From: Escherichia coli
GTDB lineage: Bacteria; Pseudomonadota; Gammaproteobacteria; Enterobacterales; Enterobacteriaceae
Direction: 5' to 3' (one strand)
Length of the DNA: 18,167 nt
NCBI RefSeq assembly: GCF_003334315.1
Contig: NZ_QOWR01000072.1
How positions within the stretch are numbered: the first letter of the stretch is position 1; every line of letters starts with the position of its first letter. Below, one piece after another: positions 9,301 through 18,155 of the stretch. The translations under genes and the position numbers were made by a program. Under the pieces are notes generated by a model. The model had not been told where the DNA came from. It was given only the letters and a program-made list of their open reading frames with translations, and ran no database searches.

Positions 9301-10043
9301 TTGGGTGTAAATAGCTGGGTGGCGGCAGGGATGTCTTCACTCTTGACCACCTTACCCATTACCTGATCTTTCTTTTCAGAGATGTAGAATTGGTAAAGCC
9401 AACCAATCACTTCTACCTGTTGCCAGTCCTCTTCAGGGATGCCGTCTACCAATCCACGCAGAATTGAGTCGGTACGCGTTAGGTTGTCTGGTAGAAGAAG
9501 CTCAGTTTCATCGTCCAATGCGTCAAATAAGAAAGGCATCGCCTCATGAAGCTTATGGCACTGGCCTAACAGCAGTTCACGATACAGCTCTTCGTCTTTG
9601 TTGCCCGCAAGCTTGAGTTCAACAATGCGAGCTCTATCTAATCCGAGTTCATCCGCAGCGTCTTGGGCATGGTCGATAATTTCAAAGCCTTTAGGGTTGT
9701 CTGGGTGCGACAAAACACGAAAACCGTGGCCTAGATAGTCATGGATTTCCATATAGCGAATAGCACACAGACGGTTGAACCAGGTATAAGCTACTTGTTC
9801 AATAAGTTGTGCATACCCAAGTTTCTGGCTTCTGGCTACTATGCGTTTTCTGGGCTCGGCCAGTTTACCGTCAAAACTGTTACCGGCGATTTGAAGCACA
9901 GAACCTTGTAGATTCGCTTCTGCAATTTGTAGCTCGCCCTTTTTATTCGCGGTGATACCAAAGGTATTTAATCGTTTAGCTACCGCATCCATAAATTCGC
10001 GGCGCGCTTTTGGTGCGTATTTTTTCATGTTGTTCGTATTCAT
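6390..10043 (-). CDS. pglX: PglX, BREX N6-adenine DNA methyltransferase
   Basis: 1217 aa. AdoMet-binding motif I LDPACGSG at 9096-9119 and catalytic motif IV NPPY at 8505-8516, both verified by reverse-complement translation. Size and position match BREX PglX. Confidence 0.9.
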   Translation of the reverse strand: MNTNNMKKYAPKARREFMDAVAKRLNTFGITANKKGELQIAEANLQGSVLQIAGNSFDGKLAEPRKRIVARSQKLGYAQLIEQVAYTWFNRLCAIRYMEIHDYLGHGFRVLSHPDNPKGFEIIDHAQDAADELGLDRARIVELKLAGNKDEELYRELLLGQCHKLHEAMPFLFDALDDETELLLPDNLTRTDSILRGLVDGIPEEDWQQVEVIGWLYQFYISEKKDQVMGKVVKSEDIPAATQLFTPNWIVKYLVQNSVGRQWLQTYPDSAIKTQMEYYIEPAEQSDEVNQQLKAITPESIEPETIKVLDPACGSGHILIEAYNVLKAIYEERGFRSRDIPKMILENNLYGLDIDDRAAQLSGFALMMMARDDDKRIFTRNVRLNVLSLQESNHLDLPTLWKALNLSGSWQSGTSQGLFSDDDQDLSSFNADNRYQLLKRTLARFTQAKTFGSLIDVPSDDHEQLKEILSTLVELQESGDSMQKPAAKQLIEFVHQALVLSIRYDAVIANPPYMGSKYQTAEVKMFLKDNFKGYEKDLFSAYIVRNLQLAKEHGQLGFMTPFVWMFISSYEQLRSTLIDDEIISTLIQLEYSGFDGATVPICTFTLTKGHIPEYIGSYIRLSDFKGAANQAPKTLQAIKNPECGWFYKAKSDDFKKIPGSPIAYWASSLQFSMFDSHPLLTSIANVAEGTTTGDVNRFLKMWHEIDVNGLGIGFDSRERAKDSGKKWFPYNKGGEYRKWFGNNDYVVNWAEDGKELRQYQGSFLRGEKFYFKAGLTWSKVSSGILSFRLFDEGFLFDTGGLCAFSDNIEYIAAILNSKVSLDIMSILAPTLNFTVGTVSSLPIVEGIPRLTENANRLKRLSKSDWDSYETSWDFTKHPLLSHTSLLIKDSYSRLLLENSQSLKEYREIEEYNNKVIAEAYGITSDALTIADHEITLFSSFGYRYGPDRAVNGEFLYRSDVVAELISYSIGAMLGRYSIDSKGVVYAHTANEGFEQLVAEGAYKTFPADEDGIIPLTDQEWFKDDATNRFREFVQVVWGDDHLQENLDFVAESLCLNAIKPKKSESALETIRRYLSTQFYKDHLKTYKKRPIYWLFSSGKQKAFECLVYLHRYNEGTLSRMRTEYVTPLLGKYDAYAEQLEKQIETADSTSEANRFKKELDALIKKQVELREFDDKLKHYADMRISLDLDDGVKVNYGKFGDLLADVKAITGSAPEVN

Positions 10044-10058
10044 ATGATCTTGCGCCTC

Positions 10059-11822
10059 TTATTCTGTCTCTACGCTGCTTGCGGGTTGTAATGCAGTTCT
10101 AATGCGGGCAAGCAGTGTTTCCTGACGCTCGCGGTAAAAGTCCATAAACTGGTTTAGTTGTTCAGGTAATGATGTTATGGCTTGCGATTGCAGATGTGCT
10201 TGTCTTGCATTCACATCAGGCCACTGCTGCGCATACCATTCATGGGGCATTTTTTGCCGCTTCTGGTTGTTGATTGTCCCTTCCAACAGTTGAAGGTTTG
10301 GCAGCTTATTAGATGCCTCGATGAGTTCATCTAGCTGTTCAGCTGGGACACCAACTTTTGCAAGCTTGTTACGCGTAAACAAACCTTTGGGGTAAATGTG
10401 GTCCACATGAAAGTGTCGTGAAAAATCGAATCCTGGGAACAACAAAGTCAACAAGGCAAAGGTACGCGGATTACCATAATCCAACTGCGCTAGTTCACTA
10501 ATTTCCTCTGGGTCAAAGCGCAACGATTTACCACGCTGTTGCATGGTCGCTTCAATTTTCGCTAGCGGGAAACCCGTATCACCCGATTGTTTAATGTCTG
10601 AGCGAAGCATAGTAAGCAGGGTATCCAAACCACTTCCCCAGATGCCTGACGCTTTCAACAACGACCTAATGAGCCAGTTTCTGATGCATTCTCTATCGAC
10701 CGCATATTCAACCCTAGAAAGGTAGCTTGCCGTTAACTTTCGGTGGTGCAGGTAATAGGCTAACGGGAGGATGGCACTTGTTGCTCTGAGGTTTTGTGCA
10801 TTAAAACCAAAACTTGCCAGCAACTGCATTGAGAGCAATAACGCATCACGAATTGGCGTCCAGTTCTTTTCGAGAATCGCCATGTTTTCCTTGTTAAAGT
10901 TCTCAACCTTAAAGCCCACGCTACCGATGTCAGAGAGCATTAAGCCTGCTTTTAAAACGAGATCTTTTGATACGTTGAATCCATCACCAACACGGTTCAT
11001 CTCATCCACTAATGCATAAATTTCTTCACGGGCATCTAACGAGCTCCACTGCGCTACTGCTATTGAAAGTAGTAAGTCTGAGTAGGACAAAGTAGTGCCG
11101 CCGCTATTCATGCGGATAAAGATATTCAGAACACGTTCAAGGCTCTGATCACTTTCTTCGTAAAACGAAATCTTGTCTTTGTCATGGATGGTCCGATACA
11201 AGTGACGAAGAGTTGAGCGAGCCTCTTTGCGTTGCTCCGAGCTCAACCTAGCATCATCAGCAACTTCATCGATAAGTGCATCTTCTTCCTCTTCCATGAT
11301 CCGGCCTACACGGAACCAGTATTGTTCAGATGCATCCAAAGAGGCTTTATCGTCGGTTAGGAACTCAAAGTCATACATCGACCCAGTTTCCAAGTCGGGC
11401 TGGCTTAACAGATTCAAGTGAAGCCTGCGCACTGGGAAGGCGTCATCATTGCTCCACCATTTACCTGTCAGCTTCCACGCAAATGAGCCGCGTAGGCCGA
11501 TGTTCAAAGCGGTAATCCGCTGCTGTCCATCTAGGACGGCAATGAACTCACGCTCTGGTAACTGAGTGACATTTTCACAATGGTAGTTATCTCGCTCATG
11601 GTAATGCTGCATGAACTGATAAAACTGATAGCTATGCCGGTTCTCTGGTTTTATCTTCCAGAATAGAAAGGTCCCAAACGGGTAACCTTGCAACAGGCTA
11701 TCAAATAGACGACAGATCTGTTCTGGTCGCCATACAAACTCTCGCTGGATGGCCGGTAACAGGTATTCCTGCTCAGCAACCTTGTCGAGTAATGATCTTA
11801 TTGTTCCACCCGCTTGATACAT
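10059..11822 (-). CDS. GmrSD-family (DUF262 + DUF1524) putative modification-dependent type IV restriction endonuclease, BrxU/SspE-like, embedded in the BREX operon
   Basis: 587 aa. N-terminal DUF262/ParB-like motifs LLPAIQREFVW and DGQQR (11517-11531); C-terminal His-Me-finger/HNH-like DUF1524 motif HVDHI (10395-10409), followed by NLQLLEGTINNQK. Sits 16 bp after brxC and 15 bp before pglX, each with a purine-rich SD. Confidence 0.85.
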   Translation of the reverse strand: MYQAGGTIRSLLDKVAEQEYLLPAIQREFVWRPEQICRLFDSLLQGYPFGTFLFWKIKPENRHSYQFYQFMQHYHERDNYHCENVTQLPEREFIAVLDGQQRITALNIGLRGSFAWKLTGKWWSNDDAFPVRRLHLNLLSQPDLETGSMYDFEFLTDDKASLDASEQYWFRVGRIMEEEEDALIDEVADDARLSSEQRKEARSTLRHLYRTIHDKDKISFYEESDQSLERVLNIFIRMNSGGTTLSYSDLLLSIAVAQWSSLDAREEIYALVDEMNRVGDGFNVSKDLVLKAGLMLSDIGSVGFKVENFNKENMAILEKNWTPIRDALLLSMQLLASFGFNAQNLRATSAILPLAYYLHHRKLTASYLSRVEYAVDRECIRNWLIRSLLKASGIWGSGLDTLLTMLRSDIKQSGDTGFPLAKIEATMQQRGKSLRFDPEEISELAQLDYGNPRTFALLTLLFPGFDFSRHFHVDHIYPKGLFTRNKLAKVGVPAEQLDELIEASNKLPNLQLLEGTINNQKRQKMPHEWYAQQWPDVNARQAHLQSQAITSLPEQLNQFMDFYRERQETLLARIRTALQPASSVETE

Positions 11823-11838
11823 AGCTATCCGTTGCCTC

Positions 11839-14800
11839 TTACTTAATTCTTACTCGGTCGCCAGCTTTGACCGCAGCAATCAGCTGCTCTCTTAAAGCGG
11901 CAAGATAGGCATCAACTTCGGCTTCACTTTCAATGAATCCGGTTGTTACTGACTTAGCCATGGCATCGGTTGAGTTAATCGTTACGGTACGTTTTGCAAC
12001 CGGCTGTGGCTGCACTGGTTCAGAGGCTGGCTCAGGTGCTAGAGCTGCTTTACCGGCTTTCGCTGCTTCCTCTTCGCGTGTCTGCTGTTCGAGTTCACGA
12101 CGTCTTCGCTCAGCTTCAGCTTTTTTGCGTTGATCTTCGATAAAGCCATTCAGCAACTCATAGGCTTCGTCCTCGTAACCTTCCGCTTCAGTTTGCTCAC
12201 TGATAATTTGTGGTATTGAAGAGGTCGCTTCAATACGCTGTCTGCACATTTGTAACGGGCGCAGTGCTTGGTTCTGTAATTCAGACGGTGCATAAGCTTC
12301 AGCTAGCGCTTCTTTTACACGTCCGATGCGCAGATCAACACGCTCTAAGGCATGAGTGCGTTTTTCTTCAACCAATGTTGAGTTAACTTTTGCCACCTGC
12401 TCGATAAGCGGATTAATGTGGCGCAGCTGCTCATACGGCGAGGGCATATTGTAAATGCGTTCTAATTCAGTGAGCGCTTTTAATGCTTCACTGTCTTTTT
12501 CTAACGCAGGTCTATTGGCCTTAAATTTCTCGTTCAATGCGCCAGCAAGGGCTTGCCAAGTTTGAAATTGGCTATTGTAGAAGTCATCAAGATCCTCAAA
12601 ATCCTCAGCAAACTCTTCAAGGGCATCAGCGTCTTCTAAGAATCGGGTGATAAGGGCGAAGCTTGAAGTTTGCTCAAGAATACCCGCGACCAATGCAAGA
12701 CCCTCGTCAATTTGAGATTTACCTGGGAAATGGCCTGTCTGTGACTTGGTTCTGAATGATTTAAGCTTTTCATTCCAAGCCAGTAATTCATCGCGCACTA
12801 ATTCGTAGAGCTCCTTTTCACCAGAGCCGGTAAAGGTTTTTGAAAAGATCTCTTTAACAAGACCAGCAGCCTTTTTGATTTGGCGCTCGTCATGTTGCCT
12901 GATTTTATGTACACGGATCTCGCCGCGTTTACGCACGCTGGTAAACGGCTCGTAAGCTTTTTTCAACGCCAGATCTGTGCCTTGGGTACTAAAAGATAAC
13001 TTTCCAGCCAAGCCCAGCCTTGCAGTGAGCAATAAGATTTCATTGTCTGGCCAGCCATACGGGCGCTTGCCGAAGTGGGCAACGATGTCACGTAAGTAAA
13101 CAGGCTCATTACGCTCGACTTTTAGCGTTACGTACTGCTCAACCTCACGCGTAGCTTCTGGGTTACATTCATCCGCTTGAAGATCCAGTCCAATCTGAGC
13201 AATATCATCAGCAACAAGAACGGCCTGTAGCTCACGCAAAACTTCACCAGGCGTTGCCTTGAGCATGTTCAATTTAGCGAAGGTATTTTCGATAACGTAT
13301 TTGTATGCTTCTTCGACGATGGCACTTGGCGTTGCTGATTTATTCGGCAGTTTTGTGCCGATCGCGTAAACGTCAGCCTCGGCAAACAAAGCTTCAAAAT
13401 CCGTTCTTAAGCGTTTTTCACGCTCCATATTTTCCATCTGCTTTTCGCGGAGAAGGTGTTCTTGCTCTGGTCGCTGTCCTGAATTTTGTTTTAAGAATCG
13501 GTCAGTTTTTATAAAGGTTGTCAGCTCATCCCAAAGACGCTTATGTTCGCCCAGCTTGACGAGCACGCACCCATCAGCCTCAAGCGTATGATTGAGGCAC
13601 GCTTGATCGTGGGAGTAATTTTCAAAGTGCGAATCCAAAGGTGAAATGACTTTAATGACTAGGTCTTCCAGCGTGGTGCCATCTTTTGGATGACCATTGC
13701 AAAAACGGCTCACCGCAAAGTCTTGCTTATTAATCGGGTATCGATAGGCACGATTACCTTTCAAAATACCGTCAAATACGATGGCTGAAAGCTTGTTCGA
13801 GACCTCTGACATTTCAACGTCAGTGTGACGGATCTCGTTTTCGATCTCTTTTTCTTCGTTGGTCAGGAAGATAAACTCATCACCATTACGCGCAATCAGC
13901 AATTGGCGTTCAAGACGATTCAAGCTCTCTTCAATTTGTTTACGCAGCGCAATTTTATCTGCATCGATTCGATCAATTGACAGCGTCACAAGGTTGTCTA
14001 GTGTGCTTTTGACAACGTCCACATAACGGATCAAGAAAAGCGTTTTTAGGATCTTGCCATCAAAATCCGTTAAGGAATCCAACTCACAGGCTTGGTCAAT
14101 CGTTCGCTTAACCGCTGGCTCCAAAAAGCTTTCAATCGGTGCGTAGAAACTGTAAAACGGGATTAACACATCAAGGCCAGAGTCCTTCATCTGTTTTGCA
14201 GCTGATTGGAAAGCATCAAGTAATGAACGCTCCCCCATGGCTAAGTGCTTACCCGTCGCGCCTTTTGTTCGAATTGACTCAAACACTTTTTGAACCAGCG
14301 TGTAATGGTAAGGCACAAACGGATAGTTGTCCACGAAAGACGGAGCGTCGGTGTAGCCCTTTAGAGACGCGGTTGTCGTTTTATCAAATGTCAGCTGGTT
14401 ACGAAGAATGTCGCCCTTTTCAGCAAAGACATCGATGAGGTATGTACGAGCTTCTTCCGTTTTGGACAACAATCGCTTTTGAATAACTTCCGAGGTATTC
14501 GAGCTCGACAGCTGTAAGCGGGTACTAAAACGCCCTTGAATTTTAGAGAAGTCCTCGCCATCGCGCTTATCCATACCACCAATGGCAGCATCAATGTCTG
14601 CCTGAGAGGTAACAACGACCCAAGCTCTGCCACCACAATATGTGCCAAGATCTTCAGTAATGGTCTGAAGCTTCAACATCATTTGTGTGTTCTTACCGAT
14701 AAACTGACCGACTTCATCGACTAAGAAAAGAAGGTTACGATCCCCAGTGCGATCTAAGTATTCATTAACCCACTTACAGAAGTTTCGGATATCTAGCGGG

Positions 14801-15516
14801 AAATTGTTTTCAACCTGCTCAACCCACGCTTTGGCAGACTCTAATGATTGCTCACTGGCATGAGCGAGTGCTTCTGAAAGTTCGTCTCGATAGAAGTCAT
14901 AGGCGTCACGCTCCTTTTCCCAAGTTGATTGAGTCAACTCAGCAAATTTGTCCTTGAAAGATGCGTATTGATTACGTTTATCAAGCTCGCGTTCTAAGTG
15001 CGCAATATGAGGAAAGTCAGCGCAGTATCCTACACGCTCATTAAAGACTTTGAGGAAAACCTTAAGAATGGCATTTTCTCGGTCGTCCGTATTGGCTCGC
15101 GAATCGATGTTAAAAAGAATAACATCAGTGTCTTTGGTAACCGCTTTTTGGATGTCCGCCAACAGCATGGCGTCGTTGATTTTGTCTTTGAAAAACTCAA
15201 ACGCTTGTCGGCCTTGGCCATCTTTTTCAACAGATTTATTCTCAAGCAAATAAGATAAAATTTTCAGGAAGTGCGATTTACCCGAGCCAAAGAAGCCAGA
15301 AATCCACACACCAATTTTACCTGACATATCACCGTGGCTTTGCGTCACAGATGGGACGTAAGCCTCAAAAAATGCACGAAAGTGTCTATCTAACTCTCGG
15401 GTAACAACATACTCATCAAGCTCGACATACACACTGTCATTGTCTTTTTGTTCCGCTTTAACAACGCCATTAATGTCACGCGTCAACTTCTTGGAAAAAA
15501 TCTGTTCAATTTTCAT
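11839..15516 (-). CDS. brxC: BrxC (PglY-like) large P-loop ATPase of BREX
   Basis: 1225 aa. Walker A GFFGSGKS at 15274-15297 (verified); Walker B-like LLFLVDEVGQ. Size and position are typical of BrxC. Confidence 0.9.
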   Translation of the reverse strand: MKIEQIFSKKLTRDINGVVKAEQKDNDSVYVELDEYVVTRELDRHFRAFFEAYVPSVTQSHGDMSGKIGVWISGFFGSGKSHFLKILSYLLENKSVEKDGQGRQAFEFFKDKINDAMLLADIQKAVTKDTDVILFNIDSRANTDDRENAILKVFLKVFNERVGYCADFPHIAHLERELDKRNQYASFKDKFAELTQSTWEKERDAYDFYRDELSEALAHASEQSLESAKAWVEQVENNFPLDIRNFCKWVNEYLDRTGDRNLLFLVDEVGQFIGKNTQMMLKLQTITEDLGTYCGGRAWVVVTSQADIDAAIGGMDKRDGEDFSKIQGRFSTRLQLSSSNTSEVIQKRLLSKTEEARTYLIDVFAEKGDILRNQLTFDKTTTASLKGYTDAPSFVDNYPFVPYHYTLVQKVFESIRTKGATGKHLAMGERSLLDAFQSAAKQMKDSGLDVLIPFYSFYAPIESFLEPAVKRTIDQACELDSLTDFDGKILKTLFLIRYVDVVKSTLDNLVTLSIDRIDADKIALRKQIEESLNRLERQLLIARNGDEFIFLTNEEKEIENEIRHTDVEMSEVSNKLSAIVFDGILKGNRAYRYPINKQDFAVSRFCNGHPKDGTTLEDLVIKVISPLDSHFENYSHDQACLNHTLEADGCVLVKLGEHKRLWDELTTFIKTDRFLKQNSGQRPEQEHLLREKQMENMEREKRLRTDFEALFAEADVYAIGTKLPNKSATPSAIVEEAYKYVIENTFAKLNMLKATPGEVLRELQAVLVADDIAQIGLDLQADECNPEATREVEQYVTLKVERNEPVYLRDIVAHFGKRPYGWPDNEILLLTARLGLAGKLSFSTQGTDLALKKAYEPFTSVRKRGEIRVHKIRQHDERQIKKAAGLVKEIFSKTFTGSGEKELYELVRDELLAWNEKLKSFRTKSQTGHFPGKSQIDEGLALVAGILEQTSSFALITRFLEDADALEEFAEDFEDLDDFYNSQFQTWQALAGALNEKFKANRPALEKDSEALKALTELERIYNMPSPYEQLRHINPLIEQVAKVNSTLVEEKRTHALERVDLRIGRVKEALAEAYAPSELQNQALRPLQMCRQRIEATSSIPQIISEQTEAEGYEDEAYELLNGFIEDQRKKAEAERRRRELEQQTREEEAAKAGKAALAPEPASEPVQPQPVAKRTVTINSTDAMAKSVTTGFIESEAEVDAYLAALREQLIAAVKAGDRVRIK

Positions 15517-15534
15517 TCGGGAGGCTCCCTGCTC

Positions 15535-16128
15535 TTAAATTTTTTTACCGTCTTCAGGCACAAGTTTGAAGGCGCGATAGTAGTTTTTAGATTCGATCAT
15601 GCCAAAAGGATGCAAATCCCTTCCGCTATATTCACCCGGATAGAAAAGCACTAATGGCGTGCTACCCATCACGTCTTGCAGAGCACTAAGTAACTCATGT
15701 CCTCGGACAAGAGGCCACGCACTGCCTAAGCCTGACAGCAACACAAACTCAAGTTCTGATGGCTTATATTTGTCCGCGATATACCTTGCCACTTTCTCTT
15801 GGCTCAGAGGCCCGGCTAGTGTTTTTCGAAGACCATCAACACCGACTTGCAATTCACGCTGGCAAGCTCGGTCGAAAAGGCCTCGCTCCTCAAGCATATC
15901 TATCAAGACTTCAAAAATATTGAGATGGACAAAGCGGTAACCACGCTTGTTGAGTTTTTCGTCAACGTGCTTAAGGTGCTCTCGTACAAGCAGTTCATAC
16001 TTGGCTGGATAGTCAAATACCCAAAATCCAATTTCATTGCCCAAGCCATCGTTTTTCAAAAACTTAGGGCTTTCAATTCGTTCCTGTATAAGATCAAGCC
16101 TGGTCTGGAGAGCCTTCATATTGTGCAC
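15535..16128 (-). CDS. brxB: BrxB (DUF1788-type) BREX protein
   Basis: 197 aa, second small protein of the operon. The start overlaps the brxA 3' end by 13 bp. Assignment rests on size and conserved gene order, not on a remembered motif. Confidence 0.8.
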   Translation of the reverse strand: MHNMKALQTRLDLIQERIESPKFLKNDGLGNEIGFWVFDYPAKYELLVREHLKHVDEKLNKRGYRFVHLNIFEVLIDMLEERGLFDRACQRELQVGVDGLRKTLAGPLSQEKVARYIADKYKPSELEFVLLSGLGSAWPLVRGHELLSALQDVMGSTPLVLFYPGEYSGRDLHPFGMIESKNYYRAFKLVPEDGKKI

Positions 16129-16715
16129 TCCATGACCTCAATCAAATCTTCCCGGCCCAGACGAACTAACCAGTCTTTAACTTCTGGCATTAGGTAAACA
16201 GGTTGTATTTTCTTTGTCCTGCTATCACTCAGGTAGCCACTATCAACCAATGCCTTAATTGCGTTGTTACCCATTTTTTTGACAGTTGAGTCAGAAAAAC
16301 CGCCAAGTTCGGCATATGCCCGCACTCTCGAGTCATAAAACTCAGACCATGCATCAGCGGTTAAAGCGGGTTTATAGGTGCGACGAGCCTCGGCTAAGGT
16401 ATGTCGCATAAAATCAGCGACAACCGGAGAATGAATGAGTAATGACATCATCAGCATTTGGACATAGGCACGTTCACTCGCGGCTAAAAGATCAGTCATA
16501 AACTCATCACCCAGGCCTTCAATACGCCAACGGATTGTTCTGGCATAACGAATAGCCGTCTGACCGGATTTTTTCTGAAGAACATTTTGCTCAACGATCA
16601 GCGACTTCCACTCATCTTCTGGAAGTTTTTTCAGTAGCGATTCTGCGATTATTCTAGATTCAGTTATCAATAAACTGCTTCCGATAAGATCGCCTAAATA
16701 TTCTTTTATATTCAT
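16116..16715 (-). CDS. brxA: BrxA (DUF1819-type) BREX protein
   Basis: 199 aa, first core gene, 9 bp downstream of the regulator gene. Assignment rests on size and gene order. Confidence 0.8.
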   Translation of the reverse strand: MNIKEYLGDLIGSSLLITESRIIAESLLKKLPEDEWKSLIVEQNVLQKKSGQTAIRYARTIRWRIEGLGDEFMTDLLAASERAYVQMLMMSLLIHSPVVADFMRHTLAEARRTYKPALTADAWSEFYDSRVRAYAELGGFSDSTVKKMGNNAIKALVDSGYLSDSRTKKIQPVYLMPEVKDWLVRLGREDLIEVMECTI

Positions 16716-16724
16716 AAATTCATC

Positions 16725-17651
16725 TCACGATTCGCTATATCCAGGAGCGAGTGCAGCATTGTCAACGCCGTATAGTGCTTCTGGATTTTTAAGTGCTAAA
16801 TGGAACTCTCGCCCATTGCTCTTGCTATTCTTTGAACAATCGATATTCCATAAACGCAGTAAATATCCAGCGAACGCAGCTCTTATCTCTACACGCAACC
16901 TATTGTTTTCCATTGCGTAGTCTATCAATACAGCTTCTGGATGTGCTAGTTTTGGATGAGGTATCAGCTCTAGTTCAACGATTCGGTTCCATTGCTTATC
17001 CCACTGAAGAGTCTCAACTTCGTCGTTAACCTCATCTTCTAACAACTCAACTTCACTTATTCTGGTTAACACAAAATCCCTAAATTCTCTATGCTTTCTA
17101 TCGAATGCTCGGACATGCCATCTCAAGCCATTGTCAATCAAGGTATGAGGAACTATTTGCCTGCTCCCATGACCACTCGACAATGAGGTGTACTCAATAT
17201 TAATCACCGCGCGTTTATGTATGGCTTCACTAATCGCCGCTACCACTTCCAATTTCGGCTTATTGAGATGAAATGGTGCTTCACAAGCCATAGGTGGCCT
17301 AACCTTGCCAAGAAAGCCATCACCGAACCCTTGGCTTATCGTCGCAAGCGTTCGAACAATGTCATAATCAAACAACGGCTGGAATGTGCTCGTCTTCAAG
17401 TGCACTCTGCGCTTTTCGTCATACATAACGTTGTTAGGAGCCAACGCTTTGTACCGCGCAAAATCTTGTGTTGCCACAGACGGCGCTACGCTAAAGCGCT
17501 CGGTTAAATAACTCCGCCCAGCTTCACCTTTAAATAACAAAGTGAAATCAATATGAGCGAGTCGTTCTCTCTGTGCTTGGCTAAGCTCTTCAAGTCCAGT
17601 GTTGTCTTGCACTGTCAACCTCTCAATCCATTTGGGACAAGCCCTAATCAT
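16725..17651 (-). CDS. brxR: WYL-domain transcriptional regulator (BrxR/CapW-like) with N-terminal winged HTH
   Basis: 308 aa. N-terminal HTH-like segment (RSYLTERFSVAPSVATQDFARYK) and a central WYL-like signature (RQIVPHTLIDNGLRWHVRAFDRKHREFRDFVLTRI; WHV in place of WYL). Immediately upstream of brxA on the same strand, as BrxR is in described BREX loci. Confidence 0.72.
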   Translation of the reverse strand: MIRACPKWIERLTVQDNTGLEELSQAQRERLAHIDFTLLFKGEAGRSYLTERFSVAPSVATQDFARYKALAPNNVMYDEKRRVHLKTSTFQPLFDYDIVRTLATISQGFGDGFLGKVRPPMACEAPFHLNKPKLEVVAAISEAIHKRAVINIEYTSLSSGHGSRQIVPHTLIDNGLRWHVRAFDRKHREFRDFVLTRISEVELLEDEVNDEVETLQWDKQWNRIVELELIPHPKLAHPEAVLIDYAMENNRLRVEIRAAFAGYLLRLWNIDCSKNSKSNGREFHLALKNPEALYGVDNAALAPGYSES

Positions 17652-17691
17652 CTAAAACTAGGAAGCCATCGATTGAATTCCATCAAGCAAT

Positions 17692-17708
17692 CTACTGTTT
17701 TTCAGTAG
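17692..17708. promoter_or_regulatory. Perfect inverted repeat CTACTG-N5-CAGTAG upstream of brxR; candidate operator
   Basis: CTACTGTTTTTCAGTAG on the plus strand, centred about 49 bp upstream of the brxR start codon. No T-tract follows on either strand, so it is not a typical intrinsic terminator. Confidence 0.35.
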
Positions 17709-18155
17709 GTTTCATAGTATCAACAAGTCGTCTTGTTGGCTATAAAAATTGGCTTGATATTGTTCGAATGTTTCTTTTCTGGCCTTGCTAGAAGCTCACG
17801 CTAGAATGCCAACTGACGTAATTCATTCTCTCGAACACGTCTAGCAACTTCTGCCTGGGCTGATCACATTTAGCGAAAGCGTGATTGATTAACCTAACAC
17901 CATGAGCATTAAAAGGTCATAATGGAAACGATTTTTCTGTTTTAGGCTGATGTTCCTCTGTTACATTCTGGGCAGGAATATACCAAATCCCTTCATGGCA
18001 CTTCGGGCAACATTTTTGATTGTTTGTAAAATACTCACGACACTGCACGCAAAACCAATTCGTGACCTTTAATATTGGTGAAACTGATCGTGATCTTACC
18101 CAGCAATAGTGGACACGCGGCTAAGTGAGTAAACTCTCAGTCAGAGGTGACTCAC

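What the first reader, a model, noticed from the sequence alone, without database searches (positions are those of the whole stretch)
17652..18155. ~500-bp ORF-poor leader between brxR and the next plus-strand gene
No ORF of 60 aa or more on either strand lies between the brxR start (17651) and a possible plus-strand start at 18156. Such long non-coding leaders before defence operons often carry divergent promoters, regulator sites or small RNAs. The minus strand contains a Cys-rich open frame (..NWFCVQCREYFTNNQKCCPKCHEG..) without an ATG or an SD, which I do not call as a gene.
Basis: seen in the sequence. Interest (0 to 1): 0.25.

Follow-up and report, generated by a model that had tools for sequence, protein, structure and literature searches.

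The report
Known brxR promoter plus genetic debris
The 500-bp gap is not one long leader: it holds the already characterised promoter and repressor-binding site of the BREX regulator gene brxR, followed by recombination scars, the tail of a broken zinc-ribbon gene and the end of an IS3 insertion sequence, so it is ordinary.

Summary
There is no start-to-stop ORF of 60 aa or more in 17652-18155, and the Cys-rich minus-strand frame exists.

The gap is a patchwork of five pieces:
1. 17613 to about 17795 is the BREX cassette's own upstream region. It is about 98-99% identical to plasmid pEFER, where Picton et al. 2022 showed the promoter PbrxR and the BrxR operator R-BOX1 by lacZ fusions and EMSA. 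R-BOX1 maps to window 17687-17713, just downstream of a TGaTACTAT extended -10. The window's BrxR is 294/295 identical to the crystallised pEFER protein.
2. 17786-17862 is a relic shared with IncR plasmid backbones.
3. 17863-17916 is the 3' flank of an island backbone gene.
4. 17917-18090 is the last 57 codons of a 133-141-aa DUF7828/Zn_ribbon_11 gene, cut off by IS3.
5. 18091-18167 is the IS3 left end. The "plus-strand start" at 18156 is the IS3 transposase.

brxR probably starts at GTG 17612, not ATG 17651. I found no sign of a small RNA or a conserved RNA structure.

Two small leads remain: a lineage-specific G-to-A change in the conserved core of the operator, and a dyad in the promoter spacer. 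Verdict: already known, low interest.

The parts
17610..17624 (-). Probable true start of brxR: SD GAGAGG, a 6-nt spacer, then GTG at 17612.
   Evidence: Coordinates by script. RefSeq uses this start for the genome identical to the window and for close relatives. Picton et al. give pEFER 12,921, which maps to window 17612. PDB 7QFZ aligns 1-295. Moellerella has a TAG stop between the upstream ATG and this GTG.
17613..17707 (-). Inferred brxR 5' UTR of about 95 nt. The transcription start is inferred to lie within IR1, about 7 nt after the -10. The region includes a conserved ATG at 17651 with no SD.
   Evidence: Inferred from the -10 position. Nearly invariant in 9-11 homologous loci. RNA fold z = -1.5. 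No useful covariation.
17687..17713 (-). R-BOX1, the BrxR operator. IR1 is GAAACCTACTG (17703-17713), the spacer is AAAAA, and IR2 is CAGTAGATTGC (17687-17697). IR2 carries a lineage-specific G-to-A change (plus-strand T at 17691) that turns the conserved TAGGT core into TAGAT.
   Evidence: Maps exactly onto pEFER 12,820-12,846. The EMSA template sequences in the paper's supplement match the window at 68 of 70 positions. The ACCTA-N11-TAGGT core is kept in the 10 other distinct homologous sequences examined. The repeat finder reports it as I6.
17714..17742 (-). Predicted PbrxR core promoter: -35 TAGCCA (17737-17742), a 17-nt spacer, and an extended -10 TGaTACTAT (17714-17722).
   Evidence: The hexamers were read from the sequence (8 of 12 to consensus, below the 9 of 12 cut-off). 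Picton et al. place the BPROM-predicted -10 just upstream of IR1 in the same 19 nt. The core is nearly invariant in all loci that share this promoter, including the 81%-identical Moellerella locus. Reporter fragment R7 (pEFER 12,400-12,941) was strongly active and was repressed by BrxR.
17721..17738 (-). Dyad CAACAAG-ACGA-CTTGTTG filling the -35/-10 spacer. Its function is unknown.
   Evidence: One search gives the coordinates. Moellerella has CAATAAG-ACGA-CTTATTG, a compensatory double change. The dyad is broken in TARA locus L014 and in ZF34, and is absent from L015, which still keeps R-BOX1.
17613..17795 (-). Upstream region that always travels with the BREX cassette. Its distal limit is approximate (17776-17796, depending on the locus).
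   Evidence: Homology breakpoints in WWCOL-256, 101EVA, Moellerella and the IncR plasmids.
17786..17862 (-). Relic shared with IncR plasmid backbones. Together with 17720-17785 it corresponds to the last 47 codons of a pEFER ORF (WP_032156934). In the window that frame has no start codon and an in-frame TAG.
   Evidence: Klebsiella IncR plasmids without BREX match only this piece. The TAG lies within 17797-17809.
17863..17916 (-). 3' flank of the island backbone zinc-ribbon gene. The joint between the island backbone and the BREX cargo lies at 17862/17863.
   Evidence: This 54-58 bp is found next to zinc-ribbon genes in genomes without BREX, for example beside a MADS system in CFSAN064036. AR_0061 has a 180-bp insertion exactly at the joint.
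17917..18090 (-). Pseudogene: the last 57 codons (residues 85-141) of a DUF7828 + Zn_ribbon_11 'putative zinc ribbon protein'.
   Evidence: Intact 141-aa and 133-aa genes are present in ZF34 and AR_0061. Pfam finds DUF7828 at residues 7-83 and Zn_ribbon_11 at 93-126. DNA homology to the intact loci stops at 18090.
18091..18167 (+). Left end of IS3 (IRL TGATCTTACCCAGCAATAGTGGACAC...). The orfA ATG is at 18156.
   Evidence: RefSeq annotates an 'IS3-like element IS3 family transposase' in the 100%-identical genome. The element is 1258 bp with matching terminal inverted repeats. This part of the query is multi-copy in 4284 of 5426 E. coli genomes.
16895..16921 (-). R-BOX2, the putative second BrxR site inside brxR and upstream of brxA. 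It lies outside the finding but belongs to the same circuit.
   Evidence: Identical to pEFER 13,612-13,638.

Best explanation
The gap upstream of brxR is a mosaic, and only the part nearest brxR is functional.

Shown by near-identity to an experimentally studied system: window 17613 to about 17795 is the control region of the pEFER-type BREX/BrxU defence island. It holds a sigma-70 promoter (PbrxR: TAGCCA, 17 nt, TGaTACTAT) followed at once by the operator R-BOX1, which is two 11-bp inverted repeats with a 5-bp spacer at 17687-17713. The BrxR dimer (wHTH-WYL-WCX) binds R-BOX1, which overlaps the inferred transcription start, and represses its own transcription and that of the downstream genes.

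Inferred from related WYL repressors: a signal of phage attack, probably single-stranded DNA bound by the WYL domain, releases BrxR and raises BREX expression.

The rest of the gap is debris without a regulatory role:
- a 77-bp relic of an IncR plasmid backbone (17786-17862);
- the 3' flank of a genomic-island backbone gene (17863-17916);
- the last 57 codons of that zinc-ribbon gene (17917-18090);
- the left end of the IS3 copy that truncated it (18091 onward), whose transposase starts at 18156.
For: - Window 1567-17862 is collinear with pEFER 28,966-12,671 at 99.4% identity. The upstream segment 17400-17862 is 98.7% identical.
- Coordinates published by Picton et al. 2022 (PMC9122601) map exactly. 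The brxR start 12,921 maps to 17612, R-BOX1 12,820-12,846 to 17687-17713, and the EMSA probe 12,801-12,870 to 17663-17732. The probe templates in the supplement match the window at 68 of 70 positions.
- That paper shows strong promoter activity of R7 (12,400-12,941), repression by BrxR, and sequence-specific binding with a Kd of 13 nM that is lost when both repeats are replaced.
- The window's BrxR is 294/295 identical to pEFER BrxR and matches PDB 7QFZ at E = 8e-200.
- The promoter core and the ACCTA-N11-TAGGT operator core are conserved across 11 distinct loci. These include Moellerella at 81% identity and a metagenome locus (L015) where only R-BOX1 and the UTR are retained.
- Segment boundaries come from homology breakpoints.
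- The zinc-ribbon remnant and IS3 are supported.
- Release of WYL repressors by a phage or ssDNA signal is reported for V. cholerae BrxR (bioRxiv 10.1101/2025.11.13.688357, which also summarises the CapW work) and in the abstract of PMC11662680.
Against: - No transcription start has been mapped for this promoter, either here or, as far as I read, in pEFER. The -10 and -35 are predictions, 8 of 12 to consensus and below the threshold of the scan.
- The window's IR2 differs from the tested operator by one base in the conserved core, so binding strength in this strain is not known.
- The inducing ligand has not been shown for this BrxR.
- The 'debris' label for 17786-17916 rests on homology breakpoints, not on tests of function.
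Confidence: 0.9

Rival explanations
1. The region encodes a small RNA or a structured cis-regulatory leader (riboswitch-like or SD-occluding) that controls BREX expression.
For: The predicted 5' UTR can form a helix that pairs UUCAAUC with GAUUGAG next to the SD. The UTR is highly conserved. Luyten et al. 2022 speculate about cis-acting elements associated with the brxR gene of an Acinetobacter BREX system.
Against: No Rfam family matches at E up to 1. The fold is not unusual, with z = -1.53 and 11 of 200 shuffles folding as well. The covariation term is -0.17, with one compensatory pair among 34. No terminator-like site is present. Conservation is explained by promoter, operator, SD and recent common ancestry. 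Sequence beyond about 17795 is not conserved with the cassette.
Confidence: 0.05
2. The Cys-rich frame is a functional small zinc-ribbon protein: the 43-aa GTG ORF at 17917-18048, which RefSeq lists as 'hypothetical protein' WP_114508851.1.
For: RefSeq annotates this ORF in the identical genome. The frame keeps the Zn_ribbon_11 region.
Against: It is the C-terminal 40% of a 133-141-aa protein whose DUF7828 domain is missing. The GTG start removes the first Cys of the first CxxC. The bases read upstream of the GTG contain no SD. IS3 lies directly upstream, facing away. DNA homology to the intact genes ends exactly at the IS3 end.
Confidence: 0.04
3. The gap is a divergent promoter region that co-regulates brxR and the plus-strand gene at 18156.
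For: Two genes point away from each other across about 500 bp. One plus-strand promoter-like hit lies at 17894-17923.
Against: The plus-strand gene is the IS3 transposase, inside a mobile element present in a median of 3 copies per genome. Most loci with this BREX cassette lack IS3 at this position. The single promoter-like hit equals chance expectation (1 found, 1.2 expected).
Confidence: 0.01

Closest known systems
PbrxR / R-BOX1 of the Escherichia fergusonii pEFER BREX-BrxU defence island (Picton et al., NAR 2022, PMC9122601)
   Same: The cassette is collinear at 99.4% identity. The repeat geometry is the same 11-bp + 5-bp + 11-bp, the operator sits the same 88 bp from its centre to the brxR start, and it lies just after the -10. 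R-BOX2 is identical and BrxR is 294/295 identical.
   Different: There are two SNPs within the 70-bp probe region, one of which turns the conserved TAGGT core of IR2 into TAGAT. The cassette sits in an E. coli chromosomal island rather than on an IncR plasmid. Upstream of 17862 the neighbours differ: a zinc-ribbon remnant and IS3 instead of the pEFER backbone with brxS and brxT.
Acinetobacter BrxR and its operator (Luyten et al., NAR 2022, PMC9122589); CapW of CBASS; V. cholerae SXT BrxR
   Same: All are dimeric wHTH-WYL-WCX repressors that bind a site at their own promoter and keep a defence operon at low basal expression.
   Different: They are only distantly related in sequence (PDB 7T8K E = 1e-23; CapW E = 1e-33 to 1e-27). 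The divergent brxR-like loci I read (L009-L011) lack the R-BOX1 sequence.
IS3 (IS3 family, E. coli)
   Same: A 1258-bp element with imperfect terminal inverted repeats starting TGATC, and orfA starting MTKT with a programmed frameshift.
   Different: This copy has no 3-bp target duplication. Its far flank is an unrelated gene fragment, so it marks a deletion or rearrangement rather than a simple insertion.

Membership tests
pEFER-type PbrxR/R-BOX1 control region | Two 11-bp imperfect inverted repeats separated by 5 bp | tested here: met
   GAAACCTACTG-AAAAA-CAGTAGATTGC at 17713-17687 on the minus strand. The arms differ at 2 positions, against 1 in pEFER.
pEFER-type PbrxR/R-BOX1 control region | Sequence homology to the DNA used in the published EMSA and reporter assays | tested here: met
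   68 of 70 positions identical to the probe. 98.7% identity over 463 bp.
pEFER-type PbrxR/R-BOX1 control region | Operator lies between the predicted -10 and brxR, with its centre 88 bp from the start codon | tested here: met
   The centre is at 17700 and the GTG at 17612. The -10 TACTAT abuts IR1.
pEFER-type PbrxR/R-BOX1 control region | A cognate BrxR (wHTH-WYL-WCX) is encoded immediately downstream | tested here: met
   294/295 identity to pEFER BrxR. PDB 7QFZ matches at E = 8e-200 over residues 1-295.
pEFER-type PbrxR/R-BOX1 control region | BrxR binds the site and represses transcription in this strain, given the IR2 G-to-A variant | not testable with these tools
   Needs EMSA or a reporter assay. 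Only the pEFER allele has been tested.
IS3 insertion sequence | Terminal inverted repeats and an orfA/orfB transposase with a programmed frameshift | tested here: met
   IRL and IRR were compared. Only the first 77 bp of the element lie inside the window.
IS3 insertion sequence | 3-bp direct target duplication flanking a simple insertion (expected from my knowledge of IS3) | tested here: not met
   The flanks are TCG and GTT, and the right flank is not the 5' part of the zinc-ribbon gene. The element is still IS3, but the event was not a simple insertion.
DUF7828 / Zn_ribbon_11 'putative zinc ribbon protein' | Full-length protein with an N-terminal DUF7828 and a C-terminal Zn_ribbon_11 | tested here: not met
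   Only residues 85-141 remain, and DUF7828 (residues 7-83) is missing. It is a pseudogene fragment of this family, not an intact member.
Known RNA families (Rfam 15) | A covariance-model match in 17400-18167 | tested here: not met
   No match at E up to 1 on either strand.

The most novel reading that the evidence does not exclude
The control region may not behave exactly like the published one, in either of two ways.

(a) The lineage-specific G-to-A change in the otherwise invariant TAGGT core of IR2 may weaken BrxR binding. IR2 is the half-site that bound BrxR more tightly in vitro. If so, this E. coli lineage would run its BREX/BrxU island at a higher basal level.

(b) The dyad CAACAAG-N4-CTTGTTG that fills the -35/-10 spacer may be the site of a second, unidentified regulator. 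One compensatory double change in Moellerella supports it, but the dyad is broken in two other loci.
Probability: 0.15. Interest if true: 0.3.

Novelty: already known. Interest (0 to 1): 0.08.

Why it matters
It matters little beyond correct annotation. It places the published PbrxR/R-BOX1 circuit in a chromosomal E. coli copy of the pEFER defence island. It corrects the brxR start to GTG 17612. It explains the Cys-rich frame as an IS3-truncated zinc-ribbon pseudogene. It also shows that the apparent "500-bp leader" is about 180 bp of real control region plus mobile-element scars. The operator SNP is a cheap natural variant for testing how much the IR2 core contributes to repression.

Tried and rejected
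- **Rfam scan** at a permissive E-value found nothing.
- **Promoter and terminator consensus scan** found no terminator. The only hit was a plus-strand promoter-like site at the chance rate. It missed the real promoter because that scores 8 of 12.
- **NCBIfam and PADLOC** on the zinc-ribbon proteins and the pEFER upstream ORF gave no family. Pfam gave DUF7828 and Zn_ribbon_11.
- **Genome-contig scan with the BrxR protein** found no relative, so I used a DNA pattern on metagenome contigs instead, which gave 3 loci.
- **RNA structure of the 5' UTR** was unremarkable, both for the single sequence (z = -1.5) and for the alignment fold (covariation -0.17), so I dropped the structured-leader idea.
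- **Second-operator idea for the spacer dyad.** There is one compensatory change in Moellerella. Against it, the dyad is broken in L014 and ZF34 and absent in L015. Short shared words (ACAAGACG, GACTTGTT) in three divergent brxR-like loci were noticed post hoc and not tested statistically. The idea is left unresolved.
- **The LR-29-1 upstream ORF (191 aa)** was checked as a possible intact ancestor of the 17720-17862 relic. It begins like an IS3-family transposase, continues as low-complexity sequence and is in another frame, so it was rejected.
- **Reporter result for fragment R8** (pEFER 12,682-12,941). My search for it in the paper's text failed on tool syntax and I did not pursue it.

Full report
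**1. The observation**

The ORF table, the short-ORF table for 17600-18167 and a six-frame translation of 17613-18167 confirm the first claim. No start-to-stop ORF of 60 aa or more lies between brxR and the end of the window. The Cys-rich minus-strand frame is real. It is a 67-codon stop-free stretch ending at TGA 17919-17917. Its only start codon is a GTG (18048) that lies inside the first CxxC motif. The 'possible plus-strand start at 18156' is also real (ATGACAAAAACA).

**2. Where the window comes from**

The last 768 bases are 100% identical to four E. coli chromosomes, for example NMBU_W05E18. The distal 77 bases are multi-copy in 4284 of 5426 complete E. coli genomes. RefSeq annotates them as the start of an 'IS3-like element IS3 family transposase'.

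In the identical genome the element is 1258 bp long. Its terminal inverted repeats are TGATCTTACCCAGCAATAGTGGACAC and TGATCCTACCCACGTAATATGGACAC. Its left end falls at window 18091, and the ATG at 18156 is orfA. So the 'next plus-strand gene' is an insertion-sequence transposase.

**3. The Cys-rich frame**

Two related E. coli chromosomes lack this IS3 copy (ZF34 and AR_0061). There an intact 'putative zinc ribbon protein' gene of 141 or 133 aa sits about 300 bp upstream of brxR. Pfam finds DUF7828 at residues 7-83 and Zn_ribbon_11 (PF11682) at residues 93-126. NCBIfam and PADLOC find nothing.

DNA homology between the window and those loci stops exactly at 18090. The window therefore keeps only residues 85-141, which is 57 codons at 17917-18090.

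The IS3 copy has no 3-bp target duplication (flanks TCG and GTT). The DNA on its far side is an unrelated truncated gene, not the 5' part of the zinc-ribbon gene. IS3 therefore marks a deletion or rearrangement, not a simple insertion.

**4. The part next to brxR**

Window 1567-17862 is collinear with plasmid pEFER of Escherichia fergusonii (positions 28,966-12,671) at 99.4% identity. This covers the whole BREX type I island, including the DUF262 gene between brxC and pglX. That island has been dissected experimentally (PMC8565348; PMC9122601).

The conversion is window = 17400 + (13133 - pEFER), taken. The published landmarks then map as follows:

| Published pEFER landmark | pEFER position | Window position |
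|---|---|---|
| brxR start | 12,921 | 17612 |
| R-BOX1 | 12,820-12,846 | 17687-17713 |
| EMSA probe | 12,801-12,870 | 17663-17732 |
| R-BOX2 | 13,612-13,638 | 16895-16921 |

A script confirmed each motif at these coordinates. The probe templates printed in the paper's supplement are GACGACTTGTTGATACTAT-GAAACCTACTG-AAAAA-CAGTAGGTTGC-TTGATGGCATTCAATCGATGGCTT. They match the window's minus strand at 68 of 70 positions.

In pEFER, fragment R7 (12,400-12,941) drove strong lacZ expression that BrxR repressed. BrxR bound the probe with a Kd of 13 nM. Replacing IR1 raised the Kd to 24 nM and replacing IR2 raised it to 85.5 nM. Replacing both repeats abolished specific binding, and one repeat was enough for repression.

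The window's BrxR is 294/295 identical to the pEFER protein. The one difference, E for K at residue 194, lies outside the N-terminal DNA-binding domain. The protein matches PDB 7QFZ over residues 1-295 at E = 8e-200.

The functional content of the gap is thus the known PbrxR/R-BOX1 control region. I read the promoter as -35 TAGCCA (17742-17737), a 17-nt spacer, and an extended -10 TGaTACTAT (17722-17714). This abuts IR1, consistent with the paper's BPROM-predicted -10 'upstream of IR1'. It is a prediction, since no transcription start has been mapped.

**5. The brxR start codon**

The first ATG (17651) has no SD. The GTG at 17612 is preceded by GAGAGG. Four lines of evidence point to GTG 17612:
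- RefSeq uses the GTG for the genome identical to the window and for two close relatives, although some RefSeq records, pEFER among them, use the ATG.
- The paper and the crystallised construct use this start.
- In the Moellerella homologue the stretch between the ATG and the GTG contains an in-frame TAG.

**6. Comparative analysis**

I collected 11 distinct versions of the region: E. coli chromosomes and plasmids, pEFER, a Moellerella plasmid at 81% identity, and three metagenome contigs. The contigs were found with a pattern anchored in the 5' UTR, so the promoter was free to vary.

The promoter core and the operator core ACCTA-N11-TAGGT are conserved throughout. One metagenome contig (L015) keeps R-BOX1, the UTR and brxR behind an unrelated promoter. 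This shows that operator plus gene form the unit that is retained.

Only the window's lineage has TAGAT instead of TAGGT in IR2.

Homology breakpoints divide the gap into segments:
- 17613 to about 17795 always travels with the cassette.
- 17786-17862 is shared with IncR plasmids that have no BREX.
- 17863-17916 together with the zinc-ribbon gene belongs to an island backbone. In CFSAN064036 the same backbone is followed by a MADS system instead of BREX.

The pEFER ORF that overlaps 17720-17862 (WP_032156934) has an in-frame TAG and no start codon in the window.

**7. Small RNA or structured leader**

The evidence is negative or uninformative:
- Rfam gives no match.
- There is no terminator-like site, and the one plus-strand promoter-like hit equals chance.
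- The inferred 5' UTR folds at z = -1.53.
- The alignment fold has a covariation term of -0.17, with one compensatory pair out of 34.

A helix that pairs with the SD region is predicted, but all its bases are invariant, so it cannot be judged.

**8. Mechanism**

Shown by homology to tested DNA and protein: the BrxR dimer binds R-BOX1 just downstream of the -10 and represses PbrxR, and probably also PbrxA through R-BOX2.

Inferred from CapW and V. cholerae BrxR: the WYL domain senses a product of phage attack, probably ssDNA. The repressor is then released and BREX levels rise, which helps against phage-encoded inhibitors.

Not shown for this locus: the transcription start, the ligand, and the effect of the IR2 SNP.

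**9. Loose ends**

The dyad CAACAAG-ACGA-CTTGTTG (17738-17721) fills the promoter spacer. Moellerella carries a compensatory double change (CAATAAG...CTTATTG). However, TARA contig L014 and ZF34 break the dyad, and L015 lacks it altogether. The evidence for function is weak.

**10. Verdict**

The functional element is already published, and the remainder is mobile-element debris. Interest is low.

Noticed in passing
window 17691 (plus-strand T; minus-strand A in IR2) and the GGAATTC site about 11 nt 3' of IR2 on the minus strand: There are two SNPs relative to the pEFER EMSA probe. One turns the TAGGT operator core into TAGAT, whereas the core is unchanged in the other 10 distinct homologous sequences I examined. 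It is shared by the genomes 100% identical to the window over this region.
   Followed up: partly
window 17721-17738: The dyad CAACAAG-ACGA-CTTGTTG lies in the -35/-10 spacer of PbrxR. There is a compensatory double change in Moellerella (L006:2539-2556), the dyad is broken in L014 and ZF34, and it is absent in L015. Related 8-mers occur upstream of divergent brxR-like genes (L009, L010, L011).
   Followed up: partly
window 1567-17862: The whole island is collinear with the pEFER BREX/BrxU defence island at 99.4% identity, here in an E. coli chromosome. It includes the 587-aa DUF262 gene (10059-11822), whose top PADLOC hit is HEC-05.
   Followed up: yes
window 829-1419: This stretch is 93.6% identical to pEFER 11,500-12,090. 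That is sequence upstream of brxR in pEFER, annotated ISKpn34-like IS3-family in the chromosome. In the window it lies beyond the brxL end of the island and is inverted relative to it.
   Followed up: partly
L002:3692-4949 (IS3) and its flanks: The IS3 copy has no 3-bp target duplication. Its right flank is a truncated unrelated gene (121-aa N-terminal fragment), so IS3 marks a deletion or rearrangement that removed the 5' part of the zinc-ribbon gene.
   Followed up: partly
L008 (E. coli CFSAN064036): The same island backbone (inovirus Gp2-type protein, zinc ribbon, HTH, zinc ribbon) is followed by a MADS defence system instead of BREX. The site after the zinc-ribbon gene therefore looks like a hot spot for defence cargo.
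   Followed up: no
L018 (NZ_CP042878.1 4752000-4761200), just beyond the window's left end: ISEcp1-blaCTX-M-15 and a cluster of IS fragments (IS1, IS3 family, IS30) lie about 4-7 kb beyond brxL in the chromosome identical to the window.
   Followed up: no
L004:4321-4638 (pEFER 12,496-12,813, WP_032156934): The ORF annotated just upstream of brxR in pEFER, possibly the one called brxT, spans the joint between the IncR backbone (homology ends at pEFER 12,747) and the BREX cassette. It is interrupted by a TAG in the chromosomal copies, so it may be a chimeric ORF rather than a conserved gene.
   Followed up: partly
L003 (AR_0061), between the equivalents of window 17862 and 17863: A 180-bp insertion sits exactly at the backbone/cargo joint, which confirms the joint as a recombination point.
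   Followed up: no
L015 (metagenome contig RRZU011965613.1): R-BOX1, the 5' UTR and brxR are retained behind a completely different upstream sequence with its own -10-like TATTAT. The homology break lies right at the -10.
   Followed up: no
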